A DNA stretch of 64,000 nt from Bacteroidales bacterium UBA3754 (GTDB lineage Bacteria; Bacteroidota; Bacteroidia; Bacteroidales; UBA1715): positions 16,911 to 80,910 of the forward strand of contig DFGI01000068.1 of the NCBI GenBank assembly GCA_002371705.1, read 5' to 3'. The first letter of the stretch is position 1, and each line of letters opens with the position of its first letter. Below, in pieces: positions 2,086-55,555 of this stretch. The position numbers and the translations under genes are program-made. The notes below the pieces were generated by a model that saw nothing but the letters and a program-made list of their open reading frames with translations, was not told the origin of the DNA and did no database searches.

Positions 2086-2102
2086 AAAAATTTGAGCTAC
2101 AT

Positions 2103-3002: not shown

Positions 3003-3032
3003 GACATTTTAATCAGCCGCAAATATAGAAAC

Positions 3033-3060
3033 AAAAAAGGGCGAATAAATTATTCGCCCC
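3033..3060 (-). terminator. Intrinsic terminator after the SIMPL-domain gene
   Basis: On the minus strand: GGGCGAATA / loop / TATTCGCCC, followed by TTTTTTG. Confidence 0.55.
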
Positions 3061-3081
3061 TATTAATTTGATTTTTAAATA

Positions 3082-3789: not shown

Positions 3790-3883
3790 GACTTTTAAAT
3801 TTTAAGGTTACAGCAAATGTAATAAAATCCCCATTAGATTATCCATATCAACAGACTTTTTTATAGAATTCACACTCCTAATT

Positions 3884-30452: not shown

Positions 30453-32380
30453 AAAAAATAATATACATATTCTTATTGACACTTTTTTCTTTCGGACTGC
30501 AGGCGCAAGACTATTCTTCGAAAAATAAAAAAGCAATTGCGGCATACGAATCAGCACTTCAAAACTATCAATTGCTTTACTATGACAAAGCCGAGGAAAA
30601 TCTGAAAACCGCCCTCAAACAAGACGAATTTTTCGTGGAAGCATATTACCTTTTAGCAGGCGTTTACACTCAAAAAAAGGACACAACTAATATGCTCAAC
30701 ACATTACAAACCTGTGTTGACAAATGTGGCGGCACACATTTATGGACACGCTACAAATTAGCATACGAAGAATACAATTTAGGAAAGTACAAAGAAGCAT
30801 TCGCAAACTTACAACACTTTAAACGAGCAGAAGAAATGCATTCATCCTCAACACTTTCCAAAGTTGAGCAAATGAATCTTGATGATTTGTTTGAAAAGAC
30901 CACCAAAGCATTAGAACTACAATCGAAGCCAATCAATTTCACCCCGATAAATTTAGGGGCAAACATCAATACACCTTACGACGACTACCATCCGTCAATC
31001 ACGGTGGACGACAACACACTTATTTTTACGACCAATCTTCCCACTCAAAATCCACGGGTAAAACAAGAGGATTTGTTTTCTGCGCAAAAGATTGACAACA
31101 AATGGCAGAAAAGCGTACCATTATCTTCCATCAACACTCGCACAAACGAAGGTGCGCAGTCAATCACCGCCGATGGGAAAACAATGTTTTTCACAGTTTG
31201 CGGAGCTCCCAATGGTCATGGTTCCTGCGATATTTATATGACAAAAAAAGTTGGAGACAAATGGATTCAGCCACAAAATCTGGGCGAACCAATCAACAGT
31301 AAATATTGGGAATCACAACCATCGTGCAGTGCCGACGGACGCACGCTATACTTTGCATCTACCCGTCCCGACGGATTTGGGAAAAAAGACATATATGTAT
31401 CATATCTGCAAGCAAACGGACAATGGTCGAAACCAGCAAATTTGGGTTCGGAAATCAACACGAAATATGATGACGAATCGCCGTACATCCACGCCGACGG
31501 CATCACATTATATTATGCGTCAGACGGTCGCCCTGGTATGGGCAAAAAAGATATTTTCGGCACGAAAAAACTTGACAAAACCGCATGGGCAACGCCCGAA
31601 AATTTAGGATATCCCATCAACACAAACGAAGACGAATCGCACCTGATTATCAATGCAGAAGGGACAAAAGGATATTTCGCCTCAAACAGATTTGGCGGCG
31701 TTGGCGGTTTTGATATGTATGAGTTCACCATAGACGAAACATTCAAAATCAAACCAAATCCTGTAACCTACGTGCAGTGTATAGTTTTCGACAATAAAAC
31801 CAAAGCTAAATTGGCAGCAAAAGTCATTCTTTCGGATGTGACCACCAACGAAAAAGTGTTCATAAACATCTCCGACCCCGTTTCGGGCGAGTGCATCGTA
31901 CCATTTATCGAAGGACACGAATACGCCCTATCGGTGGAACGCTCAGGTTATTTGTTCTATTCAGAAAATGTTTCGCTTGCCACATTCAAAGGACAAGAAA
32001 AAGTGGATATCCCATTGCAGCAAATCATTGTCGGCAACTATGTTGTGCTGAAAAACATATTCTTCGACACCGACCAAGTTTCGTATAAAAAAGAATCTGA
32101 GCCAGAATTGGAGGCAATCGGTCGTTTTATGAAACAAAATCCGACAGTACATATTGAAATTGGCGGTCACACCGACAACGTAGGAAATGCGGCGTACAAC
32201 CAAAAACTTTCAGAAAACCGTGCGACATATATTGCCAGCGAATTGATAAAAGTTTATGGCGTTGAAAAAGAACGACTTACTTGGAAAGGATATGGAAGTT
32301 CAAAACCATGTGCGCCAAACGACACGCCAGCAAACCGTGCGAAAAACCGTCGGACAGAAATGATTATCACAGCAAAATAA
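30449..32380 (+). CDS. OmpA-family protein with N-terminal TPR and PD40/TolB-like beta-propeller repeats
   Basis: Signal peptide. Repeats of the type DDYHPSITVDDNTLIFT, ESQPSCSADGRTLYFAS and DESPYIHADGITLYYAS. OmpA C-terminal motif GHTDNVGNAAYNQKLSENRA...NRRTEMII. An ATGA overlap joins it to the upstream gene. Confidence 0.8.
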   Translation: MKKIIYIFLLTLFSFGLQAQDYSSKNKKAIAAYESALQNYQLLYYDKAEENLKTALKQDEFFVEAYYLLAGVYTQKKDTTNMLNTLQTCVDKCGGTHLWTRYKLAYEEYNLGKYKEAFANLQHFKRAEEMHSSSTLSKVEQMNLDDLFEKTTKALELQSKPINFTPINLGANINTPYDDYHPSITVDDNTLIFTTNLPTQNPRVKQEDLFSAQKIDNKWQKSVPLSSINTRTNEGAQSITADGKTMFFTVCGAPNGHGSCDIYMTKKVGDKWIQPQNLGEPINSKYWESQPSCSADGRTLYFASTRPDGFGKKDIYVSYLQANGQWSKPANLGSEINTKYDDESPYIHADGITLYYASDGRPGMGKKDIFGTKKLDKTAWATPENLGYPINTNEDESHLIINAEGTKGYFASNRFGGVGGFDMYEFTIDETFKIKPNPVTYVQCIVFDNKTKAKLAAKVILSDVTTNEKVFINISDPVSGECIVPFIEGHEYALSVERSGYLFYSENVSLATFKGQEKVDIPLQQIIVGNYVVLKNIFFDTDQVSYKKESEPELEAIGRFMKQNPTVHIEIGGHTDNVGNAAYNQKLSENRATYIASELIKVYGVEKERLTWKGYGSSKPCAPNDTPANRAKNRRTEMIITAK

Positions 32381-34167: not shown

Positions 34168-36255
34168 ATGTTCTATAAATACCTTAATATCACCATAATT
34201 GTAGGTCTTTTTTCCCTTACAACCACAACAGTTTTTCCTCAAGAACAAAGCGATTCAACAATATTACATGATTCAACCGAAAACACTAAAATTACCAAAG
34301 ATACAATTTGTATTGACGGCGAATGTTATAAAATCTTGGAACACGGACCTTGGGAACACTATTACGCACTTCCCGATATTACCGTCTATGGCAACAGATT
34401 GACATCTTTGCTAACGGCGTCAACCGAATATATTCCATCGTACAAAATCACGCAAAAGGCGGAATCGTCGATTTTGCCGGTGCTGAAAGAACAAGTTCCC
34501 GGACTATTCATCAACTCGCAGGGCGTTGCTGGCTACGGTGTTTCGTCGGGAGCGTCGGGAAACATTACCATGCGTGGCTTTTCGGGCAGTGCTGGACGAC
34601 TTCTCATTCTTATCGACGGACATCCGCAGTATGCTCCTATCTACGGTCACCCGATGGCCGACACCTACACGACCGACAATATCGAAAGCGTGGAAGTAAT
34701 TCGCGGAGCTGCTTCGGTGCTGTATGGTTCCAACGCAATGGGCGGGGCAATCAATTTTAGCACAAAACAGCAAACGATTGACGGCAACCAATTCCGCATG
34801 CGTGCAAAATACGGTTCGTATGCCACAACGAACTGTATGATAAGCGACGGATTCAAGCATAACAACCTGACGCTTTTTGCAAGCGGAAACTACGAACACT
34901 CCGACGGCTACCGCGAAAATTCGGAATTCAATTCATTGAACGGATTTGCAAAAGTCGGCTATAGACTCAACAAAAATTGGAACATTGCCACGACTGCCAA
35001 CATCAGCCATTTTGACATTGAAATGCCGGGACCCGTTTCCGCACCGCTCAACGACTGCGAGGCAAACATCACCCGTGGCATCTATTCATTGCTTATTGAC
35101 AATAATTATAGACAGGAAACAATTCACACGTGGGGCGATGTCGATATTTACTACAACTGGGGCAACCACCAGATAAACGACGGCTACAAGGAAGGTGGCA
35201 AGCCGCAGGAATATCTGTTCCACTCCACCGACTATATGGGCGGAATCAATGTAAATCAGTCTTTACAGATTACCAACACAGTACTTCAGGCAGGTTTCAA
35301 TTTCAAGCGATACGGCGGCAACGCATACCGAAATCCTGTCACGGAAAAATATGCCGACCATCTCTCGTTTGACGAAGTTGCGGAATTTGTTCTGTTAAAA
35401 CAATATTTTGTTAAGAAAGAATACCCCATGTCCCCCAAATTCTTTTTTGTTGAAACGGGAATACGAATGGAACACCACAGTCTTTACGGCTCCATCCCGA
35501 TTCCTATGGCGGGATTAGCATATAAACGGCAATTTAGCCCATCAAAAGGCGGAACAAAATATTGGGATAAAAAGAGCGTGTTGTCATACTCCAAAGGATT
35601 CCGCACGCCCAATATGCGTGAATTGTATATGTATGCCGCCGCAAACGAGAACCTTTTGCCCGAACATTGCCATAATTTTGAGTATTCCTTCACTAACTAC
35701 ATAACGGAAGCGCTTAACGGAAATCGAAGAATGACAGAACTCAACATCTATCACAACAGGGGCGCAAATATTGTACAGACGGTGATGGTTGACGGGAAAC
35801 CACAGAATCAGAACGTGGGGAAATTCAAAAACACAGGTGTTGAATTTGTCGAAGAATTTACCTTGAAACATTACGACGACATGCAAAACATACGGTTCGA
35901 TTATAGCTACATTCATATGGAACAGCCCATTATGGCTTCTCCACGACAGAAAATGGGATTTCAGTATAAATACACCTTGCATAAGGAACAGAATTTTGAG
36001 TTTTCGCTTGGCATACAGTACATCGAAAAACTATACTTAGCCGTTGACAACGAGGCGACCAAGGAAGAAAACGAAGAAAAGACAAAATCGTTTGCCCTTG
36101 TTGACGGAAAAGTTTCAATATGGGGACCGAAGAGCTATTTCAAATGGTTCATACAATGCGAAGCCGCACCGTGCAAGGGCGATTACGAGACAATGTTGGG
36201 TTATCCGTTGCCAAAAGTCACCTGCTCCGCAGGAGTTTCGGTTAACTTTCCATAG
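34168..36255 (+). CDS. TonB-dependent receptor (about 690 aa; no STN or CarboxypepD_reg extension)
   Basis: Signal peptide. Plug-domain motifs ITVYGNR and IESVEVIRGAASVLYGSNAMGGAINFSTK. Long beta-strand-rich C-terminal region. Confidence 0.8.
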   Translation: MFYKYLNITIIVGLFSLTTTTVFPQEQSDSTILHDSTENTKITKDTICIDGECYKILEHGPWEHYYALPDITVYGNRLTSLLTASTEYIPSYKITQKAESSILPVLKEQVPGLFINSQGVAGYGVSSGASGNITMRGFSGSAGRLLILIDGHPQYAPIYGHPMADTYTTDNIESVEVIRGAASVLYGSNAMGGAINFSTKQQTIDGNQFRMRAKYGSYATTNCMISDGFKHNNLTLFASGNYEHSDGYRENSEFNSLNGFAKVGYRLNKNWNIATTANISHFDIEMPGPVSAPLNDCEANITRGIYSLLIDNNYRQETIHTWGDVDIYYNWGNHQINDGYKEGGKPQEYLFHSTDYMGGINVNQSLQITNTVLQAGFNFKRYGGNAYRNPVTEKYADHLSFDEVAEFVLLKQYFVKKEYPMSPKFFFVETGIRMEHHSLYGSIPIPMAGLAYKRQFSPSKGGTKYWDKKSVLSYSKGFRTPNMRELYMYAAANENLLPEHCHNFEYSFTNYITEALNGNRRMTELNIYHNRGANIVQTVMVDGKPQNQNVGKFKNTGVEFVEEFTLKHYDDMQNIRFDYSYIHMEQPIMASPRQKMGFQYKYTLHKEQNFEFSLGIQYIEKLYLAVDNEATKEENEEKTKSFALVDGKVSIWGPKSYFKWFIQCEAAPCKGDYETMLGYPLPKVTCSAGVSVNFP

Positions 36256-45711: not shown

Positions 45712-45826
45712 TAATACACTATAAATCAAACAATTAATCGGTTGAAAACTCTGTTATAAAAGAATAGCGACACGCACTATATCTGATGAAAAACAAATAA
45801 TTTTGCAAATATAAATTTTGAACGAG

Positions 45827-47233
45827 ATGAAAAAATTTTTGTTTGCACTAATCGGTGTCGCCCTCTCCTGCGGGCTTTTCGCACAGAATCAAAACGAATT
45901 TAAGATATATGGCAAAATCAAGGCGGCAAATGGTCCCGCCGAAGGCGTTGCCATAAAAGTGACGCAACGTGGCTATAAATTTTCAGAAACGACCACCGAC
46001 GCAAAAGGTGCGTATGAAATATATCTGCCGTATGGAAAAAATTACGTCATCACCTACACTATCGACGGGTTCCAGACTATGACCTTCGAAGCATTGATGG
46101 AATTGCCTTCGAACGCGCCACAATGTTGCTACCGTCCGTTGGAAATTTCGTACCACCTGTTCAATCCCGATGCAAAATACAAGAAATTGTTCGACAAAAC
46201 CTTCCACGTGATTGCCTACGAAAAGCAATACAAAGGTTTCAACTACGACCTTGACATTGATTATATGATTCAGCAACGGATTGTGAACACCGAACTATTT
46301 GAACAACAATTGCAATTGGCGAAAAACGGGGCTGAAAGCAACAAAGATTCAATTAAGGCGGAAAAACGCTATATGGCGCTCATAAACCAAGGAACCGTTT
46401 ATTACGAGAAATCGCAATTTTATGCGGCAAAGAAATTTTTTACCGAGGCCACCAAACTGAAGCCCAACAGATTATATTCATATTATAAATTAGAGGATAT
46501 TAAAACCGAACTCGACCGTTTTGAAACCAAAGCGGAATTATTGGGCATCAACATTGATTCGCTCATAGCGCAGGAATTGGCGCAAGCTGAGGAAGACGAC
46601 GACGGGCCAAAGACATATCCAGCCTATGTTCCCCTCACCGACCAACAAGTTGAAGAGATTTTCCGCACCGAACTGCAAAAACAAGTATATGCGTCAAGTT
46701 CAAACGTGGCGGAAGGCAACCGCACAATGCGCCTGATGGACGAATTTTTCAGCGAGGAAACTCGTAGAAACACAGCCATTGCCCAGAAAGAGCCGAAAAA
46801 GAAAGAAAAGAAAAAGAAGCCTGAACCAGAACAAATTGTTGCAAAGGAAGAACCGAAACAGGAACAAAAACAAACACCTATCGATTTGTCGCAAAAGCCA
46901 ACAACCAAACCAGTTGTGGCAAAAACCGAACAACCAGTGAAAAAAGTCGTGGATTTTGTGACATATCAGGATTCTTTGATGCATAAATATCCAAACGAAC
47001 GTACAATTGAAGTGACGCAAGATGCGCACAAGAAAACTACCCGCGTATTTATGAACGACGGAAAACGAGTTGACATCTATACAATGGTGGAACACACGTG
47101 GGGAGCAACCTACTACTTCCTTGAGGAATATCCAACGGGAACCACAAGCATTGGTTACGCAGCGTTCGTCAACAAAACAAAATTGACGGATTTAAATAAT
47201 ATACAACCAACACAACCAGCTGACAATCAATAG
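45827..47233 (+). CDS. Secreted hypothetical protein (CarboxypepD_reg-like N-domain, TPR-like segment, K/E/P-rich linker)
   Basis: Signal peptide MKKFLFALIGVALSCGLFAQ. YGKIKAANGPAEGVAIKVTQ...DAKGAYEIYLPYGKNYVITYTIDGF. Low-complexity stretch KEPKKKEKKKKPEPEQ. Confidence 0.5.
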   Translation: MKKFLFALIGVALSCGLFAQNQNEFKIYGKIKAANGPAEGVAIKVTQRGYKFSETTTDAKGAYEIYLPYGKNYVITYTIDGFQTMTFEALMELPSNAPQCCYRPLEISYHLFNPDAKYKKLFDKTFHVIAYEKQYKGFNYDLDIDYMIQQRIVNTELFEQQLQLAKNGAESNKDSIKAEKRYMALINQGTVYYEKSQFYAAKKFFTEATKLKPNRLYSYYKLEDIKTELDRFETKAELLGINIDSLIAQELAQAEEDDDGPKTYPAYVPLTDQQVEEIFRTELQKQVYASSSNVAEGNRTMRLMDEFFSEETRRNTAIAQKEPKKKEKKKKPEPEQIVAKEEPKQEQKQTPIDLSQKPTTKPVVAKTEQPVKKVVDFVTYQDSLMHKYPNERTIEVTQDAHKKTTRVFMNDGKRVDIYTMVEHTWGATYYFLEEYPTGTTSIGYAAFVNKTKLTDLNNIQPTQPADNQ

Positions 47234-47333: not shown

Positions 47334-47882
47334 ATGGACTCTTCAAAAACAAAAGAACTTTCAGATGCAGAATGGAACGAGAGATTCCAGTCCATTTATC
47401 AGCAATATTACGCTAAATTGTGCATCTATGCGACCTCTATCCTCGCCAACGACGAAGAATCAGAGGAAATCGTGCAAAATGTTATATACAAATTATGGGA
47501 ACAACGCGAAAAGTTTAATGAAATAGAAAATCTTCAGTCTTATTTGTACCGTTCAGTTAAAAACCTCTGTATCAACATAATAAATCGTCAAAAAATTGAA
47601 GACAAATACAAATCTGAAGCATGGTTTGAATTGAAAAACATTGAACTACACGCCATTGAGCCGCTCGAAAACAACAATCAAGAACAAGAAAAAAAACTCT
47701 ACGAAGCCATTGAGCAACTCCCCGAACGATGCAAAGAAGTGCTTTTGTTGAGTAAATTTCAAGGAATGAAAAATAAAGAAATCGCAGAGCATCTCGATGT
47801 GTCGGTAAAAGCCATAGAAGCCAGTATTACACGGGCATTCACGTTGCTGCGAAAAATGATGAACAACCCAAAAAACACTTAA
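47334..47882 (+). CDS. ECF-type RNA polymerase sigma-70 factor
   Basis: 182 aa. Region 2 FQSIYQQYYAKLCIYATSILANDEESEEIVQNVIYKLWEQREKF. Region 4 LPERCKEVLLLSKFQGMKNKEIAEHLDVSVKAIEASITRA. Confidence 0.85.
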   Translation: MDSSKTKELSDAEWNERFQSIYQQYYAKLCIYATSILANDEESEEIVQNVIYKLWEQREKFNEIENLQSYLYRSVKNLCINIINRQKIEDKYKSEAWFELKNIELHAIEPLENNNQEQEKKLYEAIEQLPERCKEVLLLSKFQGMKNKEIAEHLDVSVKAIEASITRAFTLLRKMMNNPKNT

Positions 47883-47990
47883 AGTTTTACTTGAGGCAAA
47901 CTACATAATGTGATTTTTTGTTAATAATTTGAAAAGACACATAGGGATTTTAGAAAGTTATTTGTCTTTTATTTGTAAATCGAATTTGAA

Positions 47991-48932
47991 ATGATACCTA
48001 ACGACAACATAGAAAAGTATTTGGCTGGGCAAACCACAGTTGCAGAGACTGAGGAGCTTCTTCGTTGGGTCAACGAAAGTGAAGACCACAAAAAAGAATT
48101 TACCGAAGCCTGCAAACTTTGGTATGCGCTGCAAGCCAATAAATACAACAGCGACAAGGCATTTGCCTCGTTTGTCGCATCGCATACGCCCAAACCAGCA
48201 AAAGCTAAAATATTCCCTATTTGGAAGAAAATCAGCGCAGTGGCTGCCGTGGCGATTCTTACCATTGGCTGTTTTACGCTCTTCAACAAACAGCCAGAAT
48301 CAATTACCGTGGCAAACAACAATGCGACTGTGGAAACCGTCACACTACCCGACGGTTCAACAATTTACCTACAAAATGGCGCATCAGTAACGTATCCCGA
48401 AGAATTTGCGGCTACAAGCAGAACAATTTCCGCAACGGGTAACATTTTCTGTGAAATTACACGAAACGAAAAAGCTCCTTTTACTGTCACAAGTAATAAA
48501 TTGACAATCAAAGTATTAGGAACATCATTTCAAGTAAATTCCACCAATAACGCATATGTTGTGGTTGAAACAGGAAAAGTACAGGTTTCAACTGATACAC
48601 AATCGGTTATCATAGAAAAAGGCGAACGTGCCGATTTGACGAACAACACACTTGTAACGACCACAAACACCGACCTCAATTTCCTTTCATGGAAAACTGG
48701 TTTGTTGCAATTCCGCAATACAAATTTGAGTCAAGTGTTTTCAGATTTGGCACGGCATTACAATTGTGAATTTGCATATACAAAATCGTGCGCCGATGTT
48801 GCAAAAATGAATTTAACCGGCACCTACCAAGATTTGCCTCTTGCCCAAGTGCTTCAAATGATTGAAGCGGCGATTCCAGAATTTCATTACGAAATCAATG
48901 CAAATGTAGTTCTTGTTAGCAACAGTAAATAA
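47991..48932 (+). CDS. FecR-family anti-sigma factor (single TM, periplasmic FecR domain plus a DUF4974-like C-terminus)
   Basis: N-terminal IEKYLAGQTTVAETEELLRWV. TM helix ISAVAAVAILTIGCFTLF. LPDGSTIYLQNGASVTYPEEF. C-terminal LTGTYQDLPLAQVLQMIEAAIPEFHYEINANVVLVS. Confidence 0.85.
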   Translation: MIPNDNIEKYLAGQTTVAETEELLRWVNESEDHKKEFTEACKLWYALQANKYNSDKAFASFVASHTPKPAKAKIFPIWKKISAVAAVAILTIGCFTLFNKQPESITVANNNATVETVTLPDGSTIYLQNGASVTYPEEFAATSRTISATGNIFCEITRNEKAPFTVTSNKLTIKVLGTSFQVNSTNNAYVVVETGKVQVSTDTQSVIIEKGERADLTNNTLVTTTNTDLNFLSWKTGLLQFRNTNLSQVFSDLARHYNCEFAYTKSCADVAKMNLTGTYQDLPLAQVLQMIEAAIPEFHYEINANVVLVSNSK

Positions 48933-49049
48933 TTCAGCATCAACACAGTAGCCCTCTTCGAGTTTTTTTTTGTATGCGTATAAATCTTTATCAATACCAC
49001 TTATTACAAATAAATTCGTATCTTGTCACAGTTTTGATGACAAGAGGTT

Positions 49050-50315
49050 ATGAATATAAAAAAATGCATACTATGCGTTAGTGCCTTGATTTCGTTCATG
49101 GCATCGTATGCACAAACCATAACCTACTCAGCATCAAACAAATCGCTCACCGACGTTTTGCACGACATAGAACAAATCAGTCCCTACCGATTTTCATACA
49201 ACAGCGATATAATCCAAGCCGACAAAACAATTTCTATCACCATTACAAACGCCTCAATTAACGCGTTTCTGGCAAAGATATTACCTAGTAAGTATAATTA
49301 CTCTATTGTCGGCACACAAGTGATTATAACCGAAAAAAAACAACAAAACATAGTACAAAACAAACGTCCTCCAACACAATCACAACAAAAAGAAAAAACA
49401 ATACTTGTATATGACACCATTCAAGTTATAGACCATGTTACCGTGGTTGACACAATTTTTGAGAGGAAACAAGTGATTGATACCCTGCAACATGTGGAAG
49501 TTGTGACGCAACAACTTTACGAAACGAGTAATTTACACTCTCGACAAAACAGTTTAACACTATCGTTGCATTCTGGTCCACTATCAAACAGCATCAAATT
49601 TTACAATAGTGAATCAAAAAAACTTTTACAAGAAAATCATTCATCCACATTGAGTTACAACATTCAATTCAACATAAGCTACAAGAAAAAAGACTTCGTT
49701 TCTTTTATCGGAATTGACTATTATAACAACAGATTGCGCAGTTTCTACACAACAACAACATACCAAAACGATTCGAAAGAGACATACACCGACACATTGT
49801 GGTTTTGGAAATACAGAGAAATATTCACTTATTACAAATTCTCAGAATCCGGTGATTCTGTGCGAGTTACCGCACTCGACTCAATCTATACATACAAACT
49901 TGCGACACATCAGAAAAAGATTGAAGAAAACAATTACACCAACACAACCCTTTCGTGGCACTATATTTCCATTCCAATTGGCATCGGATTGCACTTTACA
50001 CCTACCAAAACATTTGTAGTTCAGCCATTTATATCGCTCAACACAATGTTGATGGTTGCCGCAAAAGGCGAAATATTCATAAATTCCGATGAAATATATC
50101 CACTTTCTAAAATTTTGAAACCCGTAACGTGCTCAAGTACAATTGCTTGCAACCTAACCTATGCCATTGAAAAGAAATTTGCAGTTTCTGTACAGCCATA
50201 TTGCCTAATAACTCCGTCGATTTTCAAACAAAACGACTGTGATTTTCAAGGATTTATGGCACATTTCGGACTTAATTGGGGATTCCATTACACAATTCCG
50301 TATGACATCTACTAA
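49050..50315 (+). CDS. STN-domain protein with a small putative C-terminal beta-barrel; no TonB-dependent plug or 22-strand barrel
   Basis: Signal peptide. STN-like ITYSASNKSLTDVLHDIEQISPYRFSYNSDIIQADKTISITITNASINAFLAKILPSKYNYSIVGTQVIITEK. A Q/K-rich linker is followed by ~280 aa of alternating strands ending HFGLNWGFHYTIPYDIY. Confidence 0.6.
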   Translation: MNIKKCILCVSALISFMASYAQTITYSASNKSLTDVLHDIEQISPYRFSYNSDIIQADKTISITITNASINAFLAKILPSKYNYSIVGTQVIITEKKQQNIVQNKRPPTQSQQKEKTILVYDTIQVIDHVTVVDTIFERKQVIDTLQHVEVVTQQLYETSNLHSRQNSLTLSLHSGPLSNSIKFYNSESKKLLQENHSSTLSYNIQFNISYKKKDFVSFIGIDYYNNRLRSFYTTTTYQNDSKETYTDTLWFWKYREIFTYYKFSESGDSVRVTALDSIYTYKLATHQKKIEENNYTNTTLSWHYISIPIGIGLHFTPTKTFVVQPFISLNTMLMVAAKGEIFINSDEIYPLSKILKPVTCSSTIACNLTYAIEKKFAVSVQPYCLITPSIFKQNDCDFQGFMAHFGLNWGFHYTIPYDIY

Positions 50316-52806
50316 CAAAATATGTACGGCAATTCTTGCTTCAATCTTTGCTTTAAATTGCATCGCCCAAAGAACGTATTTTTCGGGTGGTTACGGATAT
50401 TCTGTTTACATTTGTAACACCAAAACAGTACAATCGTGGGGCGACAATTACTACGGGCAATTAGGTCGCACCACTGAAGCAGAAAACGAGCGTACACCAG
50501 GGGCTATTCCATCACTTGAAAACATTGTGAGCATAGACGCTGGTTTCGGTGCAATTAGCTGCGCTCTAACGGCAAATGGGACAATTCTCACATGGGGTCA
50601 AAATCTGTATGGTGAATTAGGTCAGGGCGTTACGTGCCCAAATATTTGCAATACTGCAACAGCAGGACCAGTTTTAGGAGGAGAAACAGGCACAGAAATT
50701 CTCGAAAATGTAGTCGCCATTTCCGTGGGACAAATGCATGTGTACGCCCTACTCACAAGCGGCGAAGTAGTTGCGTGGGGCAACAACGACTATGGTCAAC
50801 TTGGCGATGGAACAACAACATCACACAATACGCCAGTGTATGTTAAACTGAACGAAACAACCCGTTTGTCGAATATTACTATGATAGCCGCAGGCGGAAG
50901 CCATGGTTATGCGCTCACTGCCGATGGAACCGTGTACGCATGGGGCGACAATCAAGCCAATCAATTGGGGTGTGGAGATTCAGAAAACCATAACTATCCA
51001 CAATTAGTTGTAGATAAAAATAAAAATCCATTAAAAAACATTAAAGAAATTGATGGTGGTCGGCAGTTCGGACTTATGCTCCATTCAAACAAAATGGTAT
51101 ATGGCGTTGGCGCATACAAAGGAACCCATATTGATAAAGATGGAATTCACTATCGTACAATGAATTACGCAGAATACGTAACTGGCGGAGAAACCCCAAC
51201 ATACTATTTGGAAAATGTGGAGGCAATTTCCGCTGGTTTTTCGCACGCCATGGCTATTATTGACGACAATGGTCTCAATCAAGTAGTTGCATGGGGCGAC
51301 AATCGTTTCGATGATTTGTTTCAAACAACAGGTGGACAAATTGGAAATGGAAATACCTTCCTCGCTCAATTTTATGCACCTGTGTATATGAAAACATCAG
51401 CAACGAAAAATATTTCGGGGGTTGTACGAATTTCGGCGGGTTGCGGTGTGTCGTACATTGAAACATACAACGAAAGCGTCAACGAAAACAAATTCTACGT
51501 GTGTGGCTGCAATTCCGTTGGACAGCTTGGACTTGGCGATAATATTGACCGATACTACCTAACAACCATCAAAAACATTTGTGAGCCTTATTGCGGCGCA
51601 TATTCGTTAGGAAAAGACAAAACACTTTGTACGCCAATATTTTACGACATAGAGACACCATTTTCAACTACACAATTCAATATTAAATGGTACAAAGATG
51701 ATATTCTCACTGACAACACCACCAACACATACAACGTGACAGAACCAGGAACGTACCGCATTCAAATAACCGATATTTCCGGCGATTGTCCCGATATTGA
51801 AAGCGACATCACAATAACCTCGCAAGCGCCTGATTTTAGCCCATTATACACATCGTTTTGCGGATCTGAAATAGAATTTAAAGTTGCCGGCGACAGCGCA
51901 ATCAATTGGTACAACGCACAAAATGGCTACAAAATAGGTTCCGGAAACACGATTACCACATCAAAATATTTCTGCGAAGAAATCATTGCCGACAGCGTAT
52001 ATCAAATTTGGGTGGAACACGAAAATGTCTGTCAGCCAATCCCAATGCGGAGCATAAAGAAATGCGCATGCTCGGTACCCGCCCCTCCAAGTATTGACAC
52101 TGCATTTTGCTACAATCGCGAAAACACCATTACAATTGATGGCGACAGCATCGTGTGGTATGCCGATGAAAATCTCCAGAAACCGATTTATTTAGGAAAC
52201 ACTATTTCATTGTACGACAAAACAATAGATACGGTTACTTTATATACTACTTCAATACAAAACAATTGTGAAAGTAACGCATCCCCAACAACAATTTTTA
52301 AATATTATTGCACACCGTGGTACAGCATTTCGGGCACAGTTGTTGACGATTCCAACACTCCAATCAAGAATGCAAAAGTATTACTGTATTGCAACGAAGA
52401 AAAAGCAACTGATTCGTGCCGAACCAACGAAAAAGGTGAATTTTCGCTAATTACGCACTACTGCATTGGGCAAATCCTTGTGGAATCACCATTACCAAGC
52501 TACCACGACACGTGGGCGGGAAACACAATTTTGAAGGACTACGCCTATGATTTTGAAATTGACGCCACAATCAAACACTTGACTATTACAATGTGCCCTA
52601 CTTCAACTAATATTGAAAATATTTCCCCTAACACAATATGGGAGAACGGATTACGTGCTACAATCCACACTATTGAAGGACAAAAAATCGCATCATTCCC
52701 AATAGAATCAAAACCATTTTCGATTTTACGACAATACCCCAAACCAATATACGTGATAGTGTCTGATGCTGACGGAAATAAACATAACTTCCTTTTAATT
52801 AACTAA
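50302..52806 (+). CDS. Secreted RCC1-repeat (seven-blade beta-propeller) protein with Ig-like repeats, a CarboxypepD_reg-like domain and a T9SS-like C-terminal tail
   Basis: Signal peptide from the ATG at 50302. Blades: WGDNYYGQLG, WGQNLYGELG, WGNNDYGQLGDG, WGDNQANQLGCG, WGDNRFDD, CGCNSVGQLGLGD. 'WY' Ig-like repeats are present. YSISGTVVDDSNTPIKNAKVLLY. The tail is ATIHTIEGQKIASFPIES...IYVIVSDADGNKHNFLLIN. Confidence 0.75.
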   Translation: MTSTNKICTAILASIFALNCIAQRTYFSGGYGYSVYICNTKTVQSWGDNYYGQLGRTTEAENERTPGAIPSLENIVSIDAGFGAISCALTANGTILTWGQNLYGELGQGVTCPNICNTATAGPVLGGETGTEILENVVAISVGQMHVYALLTSGEVVAWGNNDYGQLGDGTTTSHNTPVYVKLNETTRLSNITMIAAGGSHGYALTADGTVYAWGDNQANQLGCGDSENHNYPQLVVDKNKNPLKNIKEIDGGRQFGLMLHSNKMVYGVGAYKGTHIDKDGIHYRTMNYAEYVTGGETPTYYLENVEAISAGFSHAMAIIDDNGLNQVVAWGDNRFDDLFQTTGGQIGNGNTFLAQFYAPVYMKTSATKNISGVVRISAGCGVSYIETYNESVNENKFYVCGCNSVGQLGLGDNIDRYYLTTIKNICEPYCGAYSLGKDKTLCTPIFYDIETPFSTTQFNIKWYKDDILTDNTTNTYNVTEPGTYRIQITDISGDCPDIESDITITSQAPDFSPLYTSFCGSEIEFKVAGDSAINWYNAQNGYKIGSGNTITTSKYFCEEIIADSVYQIWVEHENVCQPIPMRSIKKCACSVPAPPSIDTAFCYNRENTITIDGDSIVWYADENLQKPIYLGNTISLYDKTIDTVTLYTTSIQNNCESNASPTTIFKYYCTPWYSISGTVVDDSNTPIKNAKVLLYCNEEKATDSCRTNEKGEFSLITHYCIGQILVESPLPSYHDTWAGNTILKDYAYDFEIDATIKHLTITMCPTSTNIENISPNTIWENGLRATIHTIEGQKIASFPIESKPFSILRQYPKPIYVIVSDADGNKHNFLLIN

Positions 52807-52811
52807 TTACG

Positions 52812-52839
52812 CATTGAGCATTACACATTGAGCATTATA
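52812..52839. repeat. Heptad-periodic tandem repeat (cattgag cattaca cattgag cattata) in a convergent intergenic spacer
   Basis: Read directly from the sequence. It is also describable as a 14-nt tandem duplication with one mismatch. Confidence 0.85.
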
Positions 52840-55555
52840 AAAACCGCATTTCCACCCGTCGGTTTTTCGCCCTGCCTTCTTCTGTATCGTTGGTCGTTGC
52901 TGGTTTTGTTTCGCCATAGCCTACAACCGTAAACAGAGATTCATCGCAACCTTCCTTTACCAAGAATGCTTTTACCGCCTCGGCACGACGGAGCGAAAGC
53001 GCCATATTGTAGTCATCTTCCCCATTGCTGTCGGTGTGACCAGCAATTTCGATACGTAAATTATTGGATATGATGATTTTAGCAACACGTTGCAGTTCGG
53101 GAATGGAATAAGCCAACAAATCACTTTTGTTATTGTCGAAAAACAAATTATTCAAGCGAACCGCAGCCTTTTGTTCCTTCATTTCTTTGAAGGATGTCAC
53201 CACAATATTTTTAGAGACTGTCTGCGCCGTTTTTTCATTCGTCAAATCAATATTTTCCGACTGAGGATAATAACGTTCATCTTCAACATAATAGCCATAC
53301 ATTTTACCATTTGGCAACACCGTAAAATATTGACCATCAACAGGATTCGATTTAGATTTTTCAATAATATCTCCTGACGACAAATCTTCCCAAACTATCT
53401 GGGTTTCAACAGCTTTACCTTGTGTATCGGTAATTTTTCCCGTGATGTTCACCACTGCTTCGGGGCGGAATTTTTCAGGAATGGTGATTTCAAACAAGTC
53501 ATTTTGTTTTGCGCCAGTTTCACGCGCTGCATAATAGAAATCCTTGCCGTTCGGCGCAATTCGATACCCCCAGTTTTCCTCTGATGTATTGATTTCCTTG
53601 CCCAAATTGATTGGTTCGCTCCAGCAATCCCAGCACGTATCAGCAAGACGTGTGGACACAAACACATCAAGGTTTCCCAAACCACCATGCCCATCGGAAC
53701 TAAAATACAACGTTTTCATATCGTGATGAAGAAAAGGACTTCGTTCCACGTACATTGTATTGATAGTTGGTCCCAAATTGATAGGTTTACTCCAGCCTTT
53801 GTCGGTTTTCAGCGATACGTAAATATCTGATTGATGGTGAATTGCGCCATGATACACGCCCAAATTCGCATTTTGTCGGGTAAATAAATTATAGCCTTCG
53901 TCACGAACGGAAGCAAAAATGATCGCATTTCCATCGCTTGTAATCATTGCATCGGCGGACCATTTCGCATTGTTAATTTCCTCGGAAACGTTCACGCCAG
54001 CTTCCCATCCGTAAGTACCTTTCTGTGAGGAATAAATAACACCTTCCTTAAAATACAGCATCTGTGTACCATCAGTGCTGACACTTATAACCGCCTCGTT
54101 GGTCATTGGATTCGAAAGTTCACGGACAAGCTGTGGTGTGCCCCATTCACCATTCGTCCATTCCGAGACAAAAATATCTTCGGATTTTCCAACATTATCA
54201 GGACGATTTTTTCCACAGAAATACAAGTAATTATTGTCCGCCGTGATGATTGGCGAATATTCCCCGCCCGATTTTGTATTGATGTTTCCTGAAAATTCAC
54301 GCACGGTAATCGTTTTATCCTCTGCAGCCGATAAAATTTGCAGTAAATCACTGATTCTCTTATCGTTTGCTCCAAAATACGATTGTAGCGACGAAACAGT
54401 TTTTATAGCTTTTTTCCAATTTTTCGCAGCAATATCATTGGAAATCAACTTTTGAAGCACCACAAATGCCCGTTCTTTGGGAGCAGCCATTTTTATGTAT
54501 TCAACAAATAAGCGGTACGATTTCACCGAATCAAATGGTTCCATCAAGTCCAGCGCATCGCCTTTGCCCGCAACCTTGAAATCCTTCGCTATCAACGTAT
54601 CGAGAAATGTTCGTGGATACATATCCACAAACGTATAGAGCGTGTAAGCCTCGCCATCCTGCGTAAACTCCTTGTAAAATTCATACAGCGCATACTCAAA
54701 ATCCAATTCGCGGCTATACTCCACCGTTTTTTGCATCAACGGAATATCCTTATGTTGCTTTGCGATTGCCATCATTTTTCGAAGAGCAGGCACAGCCAGC
54801 GAACTACCAGGATTTGCCTTCACAAACATTTCATAATCGCGATAACTGCCACCTTTCGATGATGCGGAAAAGATTTTGTTCACATATTTCTGCTGAATAT
54901 CAGCAACATACTCACTATTCGGATAATTCTTCAAAAATTCCATAAACGCATCCGCACTATTCTTCCGCACCGCATCATCATAGGCAAGTTTATCGCGACG
55001 TTTCATAGCCAAAGGCGCTTCACTGGCATCGGGATACAAAGAAATAAAATCCTGATATGCCGCTACAGTATTCAATTGCTGAGCTTCGAGATACGCCAAT
55101 GAATTTCTGTATGTCACAATCGTATTCTGTAACTCTGGCGATGCTTTCTTATACTTTTTCAAAAAACTATTGCACAGAGTTACCGATTTCGATTGAATAA
55201 CCATATCGAACAACCGTTGGCAAACCGTGTCCAAGTCCTTCTGCACCTTTTTTGCAGTCACAAACTTAGCATAACGTTCCCGTTCAGCAGGCGTAACCTT
55301 GCTCAACTCATTTTTTGCCGTCAACAAATACGTATATGCCTTGTCGTAATCATATTTTGCATAATCAGTATTGGAATACATTAAGCCTGCTACGTGGTTA
55401 TACACAATGTCTTTAGGCTGTTTTTGCAACCCTGGGACAACTTTTTTCTCCAACTTATCCCATTCGCCAGCCTTATATTGTTTATACAGAGCATCTTGCG
55501 AGAATGTTACGCCCGCATACAACAACAATACGATTACAAAAGCAAGTTTTTTCAT
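52835..55555 (-). CDS. OmpA-family protein with a long TPR-like N-region and PD40/TolB-like repeats
   Basis: Signal peptide MKKLAFVIVLLLYAGVTFSQ. PD40-type repeats (EYSPIITADNNYLYF, ERSPFLHHDMKTLYFSS). OmpA C-terminus GHTDSNGEDDYNMALSLRRA...NRRVEMRFL. Confidence 0.8.
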   Translation of the reverse strand: MKKLAFVIVLLLYAGVTFSQDALYKQYKAGEWDKLEKKVVPGLQKQPKDIVYNHVAGLMYSNTDYAKYDYDKAYTYLLTAKNELSKVTPAERERYAKFVTAKKVQKDLDTVCQRLFDMVIQSKSVTLCNSFLKKYKKASPELQNTIVTYRNSLAYLEAQQLNTVAAYQDFISLYPDASEAPLAMKRRDKLAYDDAVRKNSADAFMEFLKNYPNSEYVADIQQKYVNKIFSASSKGGSYRDYEMFVKANPGSSLAVPALRKMMAIAKQHKDIPLMQKTVEYSRELDFEYALYEFYKEFTQDGEAYTLYTFVDMYPRTFLDTLIAKDFKVAGKGDALDLMEPFDSVKSYRLFVEYIKMAAPKERAFVVLQKLISNDIAAKNWKKAIKTVSSLQSYFGANDKRISDLLQILSAAEDKTITVREFSGNINTKSGGEYSPIITADNNYLYFCGKNRPDNVGKSEDIFVSEWTNGEWGTPQLVRELSNPMTNEAVISVSTDGTQMLYFKEGVIYSSQKGTYGWEAGVNVSEEINNAKWSADAMITSDGNAIIFASVRDEGYNLFTRQNANLGVYHGAIHHQSDIYVSLKTDKGWSKPINLGPTINTMYVERSPFLHHDMKTLYFSSDGHGGLGNLDVFVSTRLADTCWDCWSEPINLGKEINTSEENWGYRIAPNGKDFYYAARETGAKQNDLFEITIPEKFRPEAVVNITGKITDTQGKAVETQIVWEDLSSGDIIEKSKSNPVDGQYFTVLPNGKMYGYYVEDERYYPQSENIDLTNEKTAQTVSKNIVVTSFKEMKEQKAAVRLNNLFFDNNKSDLLAYSIPELQRVAKIIISNNLRIEIAGHTDSNGEDDYNMALSLRRAEAVKAFLVKEGCDESLFTVVGYGETKPATTNDTEEGRAKNRRVEMRFL

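What the first reader, a model, noticed from the sequence alone, without database searches (positions are those of the whole stretch)
47334..52806. ECF sigma / FecR anti-sigma module wired to an STN-domain mini-barrel and an RCC1-propeller surface protein instead of a TonB-dependent transducer
Four same-strand genes form this cluster. They are an ECF sigma factor (47334-47882), a FecR-type anti-sigma factor (47991-48932) and a 421-aa protein whose only recognisable module is an N-terminal STN signalling domain (49050-50315). The fourth, an 834-aa RCC1-repeat protein with a T9SS-like tail (50302-52806), overlaps the stop of the STN gene by 14 nt. In characterised cell-surface-signalling units (FecIRA-type systems and Bacteroidota SusC-like transducers), the STN domain is the N-terminal extension of a ~1000-aa TonB-dependent transporter. 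Ligand occupancy of that transporter is what gets relayed to FecR. Here there is no plug, no 22-strand barrel and no SusD-like partner. I infer a TonB-independent trans-envelope signalling unit. In it a small STN-bearing outer-membrane protein would report on the presence, secretion or ligand state of the RCC1 surface protein to FecR and the ECF sigma factor. Alternatively, the RCC1 protein could be the regulated output. I do not know of a characterised example of this arrangement.
Basis: partly seen in the sequence, partly recalled or inferred. Interest (0 to 1): 0.72.

Follow-up and report, generated by a model that had tools for sequence, protein, structure and literature searches.

The report
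Plug-less STN barrel signalling gene cluster
An uncultured gut Bacteroidales bacterium carries a conserved gene cluster in which an ECF sigma factor and its FecR anti-sigma factor are paired with a small outer-membrane barrel bearing the usual signalling (STN) domain and with a secreted RCC1 propeller protein, rather than with a large TonB-dependent transporter; this looks like an uncharacterised but widespread variant of cell-surface signalling.

Summary
The four genes are real and sit at the stated coordinates. They encode an ECF sigma factor, a FecR anti-sigma factor (with FecR_C), a 421-aa protein and an 834-aa RCC1 propeller protein.

The 421-aa protein has a signal peptide, an STN domain, a roughly 60-aa low-confidence repeat linker and a small closed beta-barrel. 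It has no plug and no 22-strand barrel. It is not a decayed susC: full-length relatives down to 34% identity keep the same length.

FecR, STN-barrel and RCC1 keep this order in every related locus with enough flanking sequence, in different genomic contexts. The barrel and RCC1 genes overlap by 8-14 nt.

- The STN-linker-barrel architecture is a large family (420 representatives at E<=1e-10). Four distant members also have sigma and FecR directly upstream, two of them without any propeller gene.
- One distant member is followed by an FG-GAP propeller with a canonical T9SS sorting domain. A distant RCC1 orthologue also carries that domain. The window's own tail matches no T9SS profile.
- Partial precedents exist: VreA (an STN receptor without a barrel) and Dma1 (an anti-sigma factor fused to a small barrel).

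The mechanism is inferred, not shown. I rate it a new variant of a known kind, interest about 0.63.

The parts
47334..47882 (+). ECF sigma factor, 182 aa (Bacteroides expansion family 1, FecI-like context)
   Evidence: TIGR02985 at 156.7 bits against a cut-off of 126.4; Sigma70_r2 and Sigma70_r4_2. Orthologues are 49-59% identical and lie directly upstream of fecR in most loci.
47942..47966 (+). Conserved DNA motif TAGGG-N15-TTGTC, 25 nt upstream of the fecR start codon; a candidate promoter or operator
   Evidence: The exact motif with fixed spacing occurs upstream of fecR in 15 related loci and in the window, including loci with no adjacent sigma gene. It is the only exact copy in the 64-kb window. 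Which sigma factor uses it was not tested.
47991..48932 (+). FecR-type anti-sigma factor, 313 aa: N-terminal anti-sigma region, a hydrophobic stretch at about aa 82-98 that I read as the transmembrane segment, a FecR domain (aa 115-198) and FecR_C (aa 239-308)
   Evidence: PF04773 at 48.3 bits and PF16344 at 42.2 bits; weak DUF4880 match at aa 12-43. The hydrophobic stretch is read from the translation; no transmembrane predictor was run.
48705..48914 (+). FecR_C (DUF4974) domain of FecR, the predicted docking partner of the STN domain
   Evidence: PF16344, aa 239-308. The role is taken from characterised systems (PMC7186176, PMC11637429) and is inferred here.
49015..49027 (+). Conserved motif TT(C/T)GTA(T/C)(C/A)TTGT(C/G) in the short FecR-STN spacer, 23 nt upstream of the STN-barrel start codon in the window; a candidate promoter element for the barrel-RCC1 pair
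   Evidence: Seen in the aligned spacers of 10 non-redundant loci. There is one copy in the window. By my recollection it resembles the Bacteroidetes -7 box TAnnTTTG; this was not tested.
49050..50315 (+). STN-linker-barrel outer-membrane protein, 421 aa, with a signal peptide (aa 1-21, read as cleaved at ...SYA|QT)
   Evidence: The C-terminus ends in ...YTIPYDIY, an aromatic beta-signal-like ending that is conserved in orthologues.
49119..49334 (+). STN (signalling) domain, aa 24-95
   Evidence: PF07660 at 24.0 bits, below the cut-off of 28.4. It matches in 12 of 15 orthologues and 10 of 13 distant relatives. The AlphaFold2 secondary structure is b-a-b-b-a-b-b with block-mean pLDDT 65-84.
49398..49499 (+). 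Linker with three xVYDT[IVL] repeats (Y121-D-T-I, D134-T-I, D144-T-L), inside the low-confidence segment aa 98-157
   Evidence: pLDDT is below 50. D122, T123 and T135 are invariant. Of 114 full-length family representatives, 109 have 3-6 copies, spaced 6 or 8 aa apart.
49530..50312 (+). Small closed beta-barrel, aa ~161-421. I count about 10 long strands in the DSSP string; the best-superposing PDB barrels are 8-stranded
   Evidence: Block-mean pLDDT 78-95. Foldseek hits are OmpA-TM, NspA, Ail, OmpX, Pla and OpcA. PF13568 OMP_b-brl_2 matches in 4 of 13 distant family members.
50302..52806 (+). RCC1-repeat beta-propeller protein, 834 aa, with a signal peptide; its start codon lies inside the last codons of the barrel gene (14-nt overlap)
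   Evidence: WD40_RLD at 217.7 bits, with RCC1 and RCC1_2. An overlap of 8-14 nt is conserved in the close clade.
50380..51591 (+). RCC1 propeller, aa 27 to about 430
   Evidence: The best PF25390 stretch covers aa 27-384; there are five RCC1 repeats. The end near aa 430 comes from the tblastn break in the short orthologues.
51592..52290 (+). Cysteine-rich Ig-like middle region, aa 431-663
   Evidence: Weak Ig_7 (CHU_C-associated) match, PF19081. The region is absent from the 594-597-aa orthologues in L009, L012 and L013.
52324..52581 (+). Transthyretin / CarboxypepD_reg-like domain
   Evidence: PF13620 at 33.2 bits on the C-terminal fragment. The AlphaFold2 model has mean pLDDT 94.8 and gives Foldseek hits to CnaB, carboxypeptidase D and the SusC NTE domain.
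52618..52803 (+). C-terminal tail, aa 773-834: a divergent remnant of a T9SS type-A sorting domain, or a tail re-purposed for another role
   Evidence: No curated profile hit. hhalign against my own CTD alignment gives P=3e-4 and 40% probability. Orthologues form a gradient up to a canonical PF18962 domain in P0273/L145. The model has four strands and two short helices, and no CTD appears among the fold hits.

Best explanation
This is a plug-less cell-surface-signalling unit.

Proposed arrangement. The 421-aa protein sits in the outer membrane through its small beta-barrel. Its STN domain hangs into the periplasm on a repeat-containing tether of about 60 aa. There the STN domain docks on the FecR_C domain of the inner-membrane anti-sigma factor FecR, which holds the ECF sigma factor inactive.

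Proposed partner. The RCC1 propeller protein is translated from the overlapping downstream gene. It is exported, ancestrally through the type IX secretion system, and works with the barrel at the cell surface as the ligand- or contact-sensing part.

Proposed signal path. A change at the surface, such as ligand binding to the propeller, loss of the propeller, or disturbance of the barrel, breaks or alters the STN-FecR contact. FecR then becomes open to regulated proteolysis and the sigma factor is released. The sigma factor then drives the promoter-like elements in front of fecR and/or the barrel-RCC1 pair.

Shown: the domain make-up, the predicted fold, the absence of a plug and large barrel, the conserved gene order and coupling, the conserved upstream motifs, and the existence of the same module with other partners.

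Inferred: the STN-FecR_C contact, the barrel-propeller contact, surface exposure of the propeller, the nature of the signal, the proteolysis step and the regulon.
For: - Domains and fold are established.
- FecR keeps the FecR_C domain. In characterised systems the C-terminal part of the anti-sigma factor binds the transducer's STN signalling domain, and that contact protects the anti-sigma factor from proteolysis (PMC7186176, PMC11637429).
- FecR, STN-barrel and RCC1 keep their order in every related locus with enough flank, with different neighbouring genes. Identity falls as low as 34% for the barrel and 46% for FecR.
- A more distant cluster, L145, has sigma, FecR, a 431-aa barrel protein and an RCC1 protein 33% identical to the window's.
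- The barrel and RCC1 genes overlap by 8-14 nt in the close clade. The pair also persists without an adjacent FecR or sigma gene in L146.
- In L147 a distant member of the barrel family is followed, 8 nt downstream, by a different propeller. It is an FG-GAP protein with a canonical Por_Secre_tail at 46.5 bits.
- The distant RCC1 orthologue P0273 also has a canonical Por_Secre_tail.
- Another protein in the window (10983-13481, minus strand) has a clear CTD-like C-terminus by my own HMM, so the organism probably has a T9SS.
- Conserved promoter-like motifs lie upstream of fecR and of the barrel gene.
- Two precedents make small-barrel or barrel-less receptors plausible: Dma1 (anti-sigma domain, disordered region, 8-strand OMP_b-brl_2 barrel; PMC10927553) and VreA (STN without a barrel; PMC2729926).
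Against: - No interaction was tested. No multimer modelling tool was available.
- The STN score of the window protein itself is below Pfam's cut-off.
- The module exists with no propeller gene beside it in L023 and L024. The propeller therefore cannot be a universal part of the sensor.
- The window's RCC1 tail matches no T9SS profile or fold. Surface exposure in this organism is therefore unproven, and the protein could be periplasmic.
- The sigma gene is absent within about 6-7 kb upstream in one sub-clade and lies 5.5 kb upstream in another.
- It is unclear how a closed 8-10-strand barrel would pass a signal across the membrane.
- Which sigma factor uses the conserved motifs is unknown.
Confidence: 0.45

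Rival explanations
1. Generic envelope sensor, with the propeller as output only. The sigma, FecR and STN-barrel proteins act as a non-covalent ('split') counterpart of the Dma anti-sigma factors. The barrel reports outer-membrane state, such as damage, vesiculation or periplasm width. The RCC1 protein is simply the gene the sigma factor switches on in this clade.
For: - The three-gene module stands alone in L023 and L024, and the downstream partner differs between lineages (RCC1 or FG-GAP).
- Part of the family's barrels match PF13568 OMP_b-brl_2, the annotation given for Dma1's barrel (PMC10927553).
- The long low-confidence tether parallels Dma1's disordered region.
- A conserved promoter-like element lies directly upstream of the barrel-RCC1 pair, as in fecIR/fecA logic.
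Against: - The barrel-RCC1 overlap of 8-14 nt is conserved, and the pair persists without FecR or sigma in L146. Both point to a stoichiometric partnership rather than simple co-regulation.
- Two unrelated propellers carrying secretion tails occupy the same position, which suggests a specific functional slot.
Confidence: 0.3
2. Secretion or anchoring accessory. The barrel is a dedicated outer-membrane partner that anchors or helps export the propeller cargo, much as PorP/SprF-like proteins anchor type-B CTD cargo. Its STN domain tells FecR whether cargo is loaded, giving feedback control of cargo synthesis.
For: - The partners carry T9SS sorting domains in L145 and L147.
- PorP-like barrels encoded next to their cargo anchor type-B CTD proteins (PMC9143113).
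- A T9SS cargo protein, PorA, signals to the PorXY-SigP cascade in Porphyromonas gingivalis (PMC7712824, PMC12152298).
- The window clade's tail has diverged from the general CTD, which might reflect adaptation to a private partner.
Against: - There is no sequence match to PorP/SprF (TIGR03519) or to any NCBIfam model.
- The recognisable partner tails are type A, not type B.
- The barrel family also occurs with no adjacent cargo gene.
Confidence: 0.15
3. TonB-energised signalling without transport. The tandem VYDT[IV]xV motifs in the tether are TonB boxes. TonB binding or pulling on the tether displaces the STN domain and triggers FecR cleavage.
For: - By my recollection the motif resembles E. 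coli TonB boxes (DTIVV, DTITV, DTLVV).
- It lies where a transducer's TonB box lies, between the STN domain and the barrel.
- It is the most conserved feature of the linker.
Against: - The same repeat forms long arrays between the functional domain and the sorting domain of exported T9SS cargo (L058 has more than 20 copies; also L144 and L053). TonB cannot reach those proteins.
- There is no plug for TonB to act on.
Confidence: 0.07
4. Decayed fragment of a susC-like transducer gene, or a mis-called ORF.
For: Only the sub-threshold STN score of the window protein.
Against: - There are 17 clusters of 411-432 aa down to 34% identity, conserved along the full length, with a conserved C-terminal aromatic ending.
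- A confident closed small barrel is predicted.
- There are no Plug or TonB_dep_Rec remnants.
- 420 related representatives exist, mostly 380-480 aa.
Confidence: 0.01

Closest known systems
FecIRA-type cell-surface signalling, and Bacteroides ECF sigma / anti-sigma / SusC-like transducer units in polysaccharide utilisation loci
   Same: - An ECF sigma factor, a FecR anti-sigma factor with FecR_C, and an outer-membrane protein with an N-terminal STN domain.
- The receptor gene lies directly downstream of fecR, behind its own promoter-like element.
   Different: - The outer-membrane partner has no plug, no 22-strand barrel and no SusD partner.
- It is a small barrel of about 260 aa on a repeat tether.
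- It has a co-encoded secreted propeller protein.
[quoted passage not shown]
   Same: - A small outer-membrane barrel (OMP_b-brl_2 type in part of the family) is linked to an ECF anti-sigma factor by a long flexible periplasm-spanning segment.
- Both belong to Bacteroidota.
- Both are proposed to sense the surface or the outer-membrane state.
   Different: - Dma1 is a single polypeptide. Here the barrel and the anti-sigma factor are separate proteins, presumably joined non-covalently through STN and FecR_C.
- The anti-sigma factor is FecR-type and the sigma factor matches TIGR02985, whereas Dma1's partner Das1 is described as ECF21.
VreA-VreI-VreR (PUMA3) of Pseudomonas aeruginosa (PMC2729926)
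   Same: - A cell-surface-signalling system whose receptor component is a short STN protein that lacks the TonB-dependent barrel and plug.
- It regulates secreted or surface proteins rather than iron uptake.
   Different: - VreA has a TolA/TonB-like C-terminal domain and is mostly soluble in the periplasm. Here the C-terminal part is an outer-membrane barrel.
- The phylum and gene order differ.
[quoted passage not shown]
   Same: A T9SS cargo protein takes part in signalling that ends at an ECF sigma factor in Bacteroidota.
   Different: - That pathway runs through a two-component system (PorY/PorX), not FecR and STN.
- It has no STN-barrel protein, and PorA is not a propeller.
PorP/SprF-like barrels that anchor type-B CTD cargo (PMC9143113)
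   Same: A small outer-membrane barrel is encoded next to a T9SS cargo gene.
   Different: - There is no sequence similarity to TIGR03519.
- The recognisable partner tails are type A.
- PorP-like proteins are not described with an STN domain or a FecR link (my knowledge).

Membership tests
TonB-dependent transducer (FecA / SusC-like with signalling domain) | N-terminal STN signalling domain | tested here: met
   PF07660 at 24.0 bits in the window protein, which is below the cut-off. It matches in 12 of 15 orthologues (best E 3e-9) and 10 of 13 distant relatives, and the AlphaFold2 model supports the fold.
TonB-dependent transducer (FecA / SusC-like with signalling domain) | Plug domain (PF07715) | tested here: not met
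   No hit at E<=1 in Pfam or NCBIfam, and none at E<=10 on the barrel fragment (aa 158-421). No plug-like fold appears in the model.
TonB-dependent transducer (FecA / SusC-like with signalling domain) | 22-strand barrel (PF00593) | tested here: not met
   The barrel is about 260 aa with roughly 10 strands. The Foldseek hits listed are small barrels and FadL only. A genuine TonB-dependent receptor in the same window (34168-36255) is readily detected.
TonB-dependent transducer (FecA / SusC-like with signalling domain) | TonB box between the STN domain and the barrel or plug | tested here: inconclusive
   Tandem VYDT[IV]xV motifs resemble TonB boxes. The same repeat occurs in exported T9SS cargo linkers. 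Binding cannot be tested here.
ECF sigma / FecR anti-sigma pair | ECF sigma factor (regions 2 and 4) next to a FecR protein with FecR and FecR_C domains | tested here: met
   TIGR02985 at 156.7 bits, PF04773 at 48.3 bits and PF16344 at 42.2 bits, all above cut-off.
[quoted passage not shown] | Anti-sigma domain and outer-membrane barrel in one polypeptide | tested here: not met
   They are separate ORFs, 47991-48932 and 49050-50315, with a 117-nt spacer. The barrel protein has its own signal peptide.
[quoted passage not shown] | Small OMP_b-brl_2-type barrel on a long disordered periplasmic segment | tested here: inconclusive
   The linker at aa 98-157 has pLDDT below 50. PF13568 matches 4 of 13 distant members and 1 of 15 orthologues, but not the window protein itself.
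VreA-type barrel-less receptor | STN domain followed by a TolA/TonB-like C-terminal domain, in a soluble periplasmic protein | tested here: not met
   The C-terminal part is predicted to be a beta-barrel with an aromatic C-terminal ending.
PorP/SprF family (T9SS membrane protein) | Match to TIGR03519 | tested here: not met
   NCBIfam returns 0 families for the full protein (E<=1) and for the barrel alone (E<=10).
T9SS type-A cargo (for the RCC1 protein) | C-terminal sorting domain (PF18962 / TIGR04183) | tested here: not met
   There is no profile hit for the window protein. My own CTD HMM gives domain i-E 0.16 and about 2 in two searches. No CTD appears among the fold hits. Distant orthologues P0273 and P0280 do carry PF18962, and intermediate orthologues score i-E 1e-5 to 1e-2. 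The tail is therefore probably a diverged derivative.
RCC1-like propeller proteins | RCC1 repeats forming a propeller | tested here: met
   PF25390 at 217.7 bits and PF00415 at 149.5 bits with 5 stretches.

The most novel reading that the evidence does not exclude
A widespread, undescribed class of Bacteroidota cell-surface signalling. In it a small STN-bearing outer-membrane barrel pairs with a T9SS-secreted beta-propeller (RCC1 in one clade, FG-GAP in another). Together they form a two-protein surface receptor that controls a FecR/ECF sigma switch without a TonB-dependent transporter. This would directly link type IX secretion cargo to trans-envelope gene regulation, and would be a split counterpart of the Dma anti-sigma factors.
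Probability: 0.3. Interest if true: 0.8.

Novelty: new variant of a known kind. Interest (0 to 1): 0.63.

Why it matters
- Bacteroidota encode on average 22.5 ECF sigma factors per genome (PMC7826278). The function usually discussed for the Bacteroidetes FecR-regulated group ECF240 is carbohydrate scavenging, which that paper notes had not been tested experimentally.
- A FecR partner that is only a small barrel on a tether would show that the STN/FecR_C connection is a portable module. It could couple other surface structures, here apparently secreted propeller proteins, to transcription.
- It would also bridge two recently separated concepts: classical cell-surface signalling and the Dma dual-membrane anti-sigma factors.
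- It offers a concrete system for asking how a signal crosses the outer membrane without TonB-driven plug movement.
- The family is large (420 representatives at E<=1e-10). The members whose source I could see come from metagenomes or metagenome-assembled genomes, so it has probably escaped experimental attention.

Tried and rejected
1. Decayed susC fragment: rejected. The protein is conserved at full length, a closed small barrel is confidently predicted, and there are no Plug or TonB_dep_Rec remnants.
2. TonB-box reading of the VYDT[IV] repeats: largely rejected after the same repeat turned up in exported T9SS cargo linkers.
3. Curated T9SS CTD profiles on the RCC1 tail, both full-length and isolated: no hit.
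4. My own CTD HMM and hhalign on the tail: weak.
5. AlphaFold2 model of the C-terminal 171 aa plus Foldseek: confident, but the hits are transthyretin/CnaB-like domains only, with no CTD.
6. Profile of the family against PDB sequences: nothing at E<=1.
7. The sigma-70-type promoter scan and the intrinsic-terminator scan: no more sites than in shuffled sequence.
8. Looking for further copies of the TAGGG-N15-TTGTC motif in the window to find regulon members: only chance-level one-mismatch hits.
10. The replacement DNA-pattern scan for YDTxxVYDT: it mostly recovered other repeat-bearing proteins, not family members.
11. Word-indexed search with A2: few hits.
12. Cluster look-up of ten distant members: no organism names.
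13. Literature searches for a described short STN-barrel protein: none found.

Full report
**1. What is in the sequence**

The last one starts 14 nt before the stop codon of the third. Base composition is unremarkable, about 38-42% G+C as in the rest of the window.

The neighbouring genes are ordinary chromosomal genes. They include Rho, an aminotransferase, MutS (recognised from its translation), a TonB-dependent receptor and two PorE/CHU_0125-like OmpA-family proteins.

The 421-aa protein is identical to one that NCBI lists as 'STN domain-containing protein' from a Bacteroidales metagenome-assembled genome. All close relatives come from uncultured Bacteroidales of rumen, yak, sheep, horse and digester samples.

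**2. Domain check**

- The sigma factor passes TIGR02985 (156.7 bits, cut-off 126.4).
- The anti-sigma factor passes FecR and FecR_C.
- The RCC1 protein passes WD40_RLD and RCC1. It also has a weak Ig_7 region and a CarboxypepD_reg-like domain.

The 421-aa protein has STN as its only hit, and that hit is below Pfam's cut-off (24.0 against 28.4 bits). No Plug, TonB_dep_Rec, PorP/SprF or other model matches.

Relatives and a structure model make the STN assignment safe:
- 12 of 15 orthologues and 10 of 13 distant relatives match STN.
- An AlphaFold2 model built on 15 orthologues shows a beta-alpha-beta-beta-alpha-beta-beta unit at residues 24-95. This is the layout described for signalling domains (PMC2729926).

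The same model shows a low-confidence linker at residues 98-157 and a beta-barrel at roughly 160-418 with block-mean pLDDT 78-95. Foldseek against the PDB finds only small outer-membrane barrels and FadL. OmpA's transmembrane domain and NspA superpose best, with target-normalised TM-scores of 0.65-0.66. No TonB-dependent transporter appears in the 50 matches listed.

The family ends in a conserved aromatic motif, YTIPY..F/Y. The 'STN-domain mini-barrel' is therefore real.

**3. Not a relic**

The word-indexed search found 17 clusters of 411-432 aa, from 100% down to 34% identity. They are conserved from the signal peptide to the last residue.

The exhaustive profile search found 9,261 representatives at E<=1e-3, 420 at E<=1e-10 and 19 at E<=1e-30. 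Of the best 150, 114 are 380-480 aa long, and most of these match along nearly their whole length.

Distant members share the same plan:
- a signal peptide;
- an STN domain;
- a linker with tandem xVYDT[IV]xV motifs;
- a barrel.

Of the 114 full-length representatives, 109 carry 3-6 of these motifs, spaced 6 or 8 residues apart. Four of 13 distant members match PF13568 OMP_b-brl_2.

**4. Gene order**

In the 20 related loci recovered first, FecR, STN-barrel and RCC1 are adjacent in that order wherever the contig allows. That is 19 of 20; L017 ends at the barrel gene, and L010 begins there and so shows only the barrel-RCC1 pair. The flanking genes differ between lineages. A further metagenome locus, L070, shows the same four-gene order up to its contig end.

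The barrel/RCC1 overlap is 14, 11 or 8 nt in the ten non-redundant loci examined.

The sigma gene is directly upstream in most lineages. In L009 and L012 it lies 5.5 kb upstream, separated by inserted genes. In one sub-clade (L001, L007, L017, L018, L019) it is absent from the 6-7 kb available upstream.

The RCC1 orthologue group is wider than the barrel hits suggested, at about 40 clusters. Two distant contexts are informative:
- L145 has sigma, FecR, a 431-aa STN-barrel protein and an RCC1 protein 33% identical to the window's over residues 22-774. Here the RCC1 protein has a canonical Por_Secre_tail.
- L146 has only the barrel and RCC1 genes, with no FecR or sigma gene beside them.

**5. 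The wider family**

Distant family members (21-24% identical in alignment A2) also have sigma and FecR directly upstream. This holds in L021, L023, L024 and L147.

- In L023 and L024 nothing co-oriented follows the barrel gene.
- In L147 the next gene starts 8 nt downstream. It encodes a 648-aa FG-GAP propeller with a Por_Secre_tail at 46.5 bits.

So sigma-FecR-STN-barrel is the general module. A secreted propeller is a frequent partner but not an obligatory one, and the propeller family can differ.

**6. The RCC1 tail**

Curated T9SS profiles do not match the window protein.

I built a CTD model from clear sorting domains among the fetched loci, leaving out all RCC1 orthologues. Its results were as follows:
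- It matches the tail of the most divergent close orthologue (L004) at domain i-E 1e-5.
- It matches several intermediate orthologues at 1e-5 to 1e-2.
- It matches the distant P0273 and P0280 at 8e-10 and 2e-5.
- It scores the window tail only at 0.16 in the ten-sequence search and about 2 in the 121-sequence search.

hhalign of the tail alignment against the CTD alignment gives P=3e-4 and 40% probability, in the correct register. A confident model of the last 171 residues (mean pLDDT 94.8) shows a transthyretin-like domain followed by a short tail of four strands and two helices. Fold hits are to transthyretin/CnaB-like domains only.

I conclude that the tail descends from a type-A sorting domain but has diverged. 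Whether it still directs secretion is open. Another window protein (10983-13481, minus strand) has a clear CTD-like end by my HMM, so the organism probably has a T9SS.

**7. Regulatory DNA**

Two short elements are conserved against a variable background.

- TAGGG-N15-TTGTC lies upstream of fecR (about 20-40 nt in the loci aligned), at 47942-47966 in the window. The exact motif is present in 15 related loci, including those with no adjacent sigma gene. It is the only exact copy in the window.
- TT(C/T)GTA(T/C)(C/A)TTGT(C/G) lies in the 49-147-nt FecR-STN spacer, at 49015-49027 in the window.

No terminator-like site separates the four genes. These elements fit a layout in which fecR and the barrel-RCC1 pair each have a promoter. 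Which sigma factor reads them was not tested.

**8. Mechanism**

[quoted passage not shown] In the Fox system this contact exists before induction and protects the anti-sigma factor from proteolysis (PMC11637429).

By analogy, I propose the following:
- The barrel anchors an STN domain that reaches FecR_C across the periplasm on its repeat tether.
- Disturbing this contact frees the sigma factor.
- The conserved coupling with a secreted propeller, including the pair without FecR in L146 and a second propeller type in L147, makes a barrel-propeller surface complex the most economical reading for this clade.

I put about 0.45 on this. The main rival, at about 0.3, is a Dma-like generic envelope sensor with the propeller as mere output. 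A PorP-like anchoring role with feedback to FecR gets about 0.15.

The TonB-box reading of the repeats is weak. The same repeat forms long spacers in exported T9SS cargo (L058, L144, L053). It also occurs at the junction of ORFs that fuse a sigma factor to a hydrophobic segment and the adjacent barrel genes (L034, L083, L140).

**9. Comparison with known systems**

The cluster works like cell-surface signalling. It fails two defining features of a TonB-dependent transducer, the plug and the 22-strand barrel.

It is not a Dma protein, because the barrel and the anti-sigma factor are separate polypeptides and the anti-sigma factor is FecR-type. It is not VreA-like, because the C-terminal part is a barrel rather than a TolA/TonB-like domain. 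It is not PorP/SprF by sequence.

I found no paper describing short STN-barrel proteins. The ECF classification paper discusses FecR-regulated groups only in connection with TonB-dependent receptors and carbohydrate scavenging.

**10. Verdict**

The unit is a member of a large, uncharacterised family of plug-less STN-barrel partners of FecR/ECF sigma pairs. In several lineages these are coupled to T9SS-type propeller proteins.

I classify it as a new variant of a known kind, with interest about 0.63.

Noticed in passing
window 49398-49499; also L058:1135-2544(-), L144:2932-4359(+), L053:5272-7464(+): A tandem 6/8-residue repeat, xVYDT[IVT]xV, recurs in cell-envelope proteins, apparently of Bacteroidota. 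It forms the tether of STN-barrel proteins. It also forms spacers, sometimes more than 20 copies long, between the functional domain and the T9SS sorting domain of secreted proteins. No Pfam match covered it in the STN-barrel proteins scanned.
   Followed up: partly
L034:579-1628 and 1621-3372; L083:3592-4629(-) and 1920-3809(-); L140:1460-2506 and 2178-4265: ORFs of about 345-350 aa fuse an ECF sigma factor to a hydrophobic segment and end in DT[IV] repeats. They overlap a downstream gene that has a signal peptide, more DT[IV] repeats and a large beta-rich, possibly barrel-like region. This resembles the Dma3-type arrangement described for Bacteroides (PMC10927553).
   Followed up: no
window 10983-13481 (-): An 832-aa protein has no NCBIfam match, but its C-terminus matches my own T9SS type-A sorting-domain HMM (E 4e-15 after iteration). 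This suggests the organism has a type IX secretion system.
   Followed up: partly
window 30449-32380 (+) and 52835-55555 (-): Two OmpA-family proteins resemble PorE and CHU_0125 but score far below the curated cut-offs (263 and 161 bits against 600). For the second, Pfam shows PD40 repeats and an OmpA domain. That second gene converges on the RCC1 gene with a 28-nt gap and keeps this position in L010 and L011.
   Followed up: no
window 45818-47233 (+): The upstream 471-aa protein has a CarboxypepD_reg-like domain, one TPR and a lysine/glutamate-rich stretch. It is syntenic with the cluster in L002, L003, L013, L014 and L016 at about 80% identity. That is far more conserved than the cluster's own genes (34-69%).
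   Followed up: no
window 49021-49045 (+): A perfect 8-bp inverted repeat, TCTTGTCA...TGACAAGA, overlaps the conserved motif upstream of the STN-barrel gene and ends 5 nt before its start codon. A similar repeat is present in L015 but not in most other loci.
   Followed up: no
L010:221-1483: The STN-barrel orthologue in this water-buffalo rumen MAG (63% identical) appears to contain an in-frame stop near locus position 508. This could be a pseudogene or an assembly error.
   Followed up: no
L009, L012, L013 (RCC1 genes of 594-597 aa): A short form of the RCC1 partner lacks the cysteine-rich Ig-like middle region (window aa ~431-663). It keeps the propeller, the transthyretin-like domain and the tail.
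   Followed up: partly
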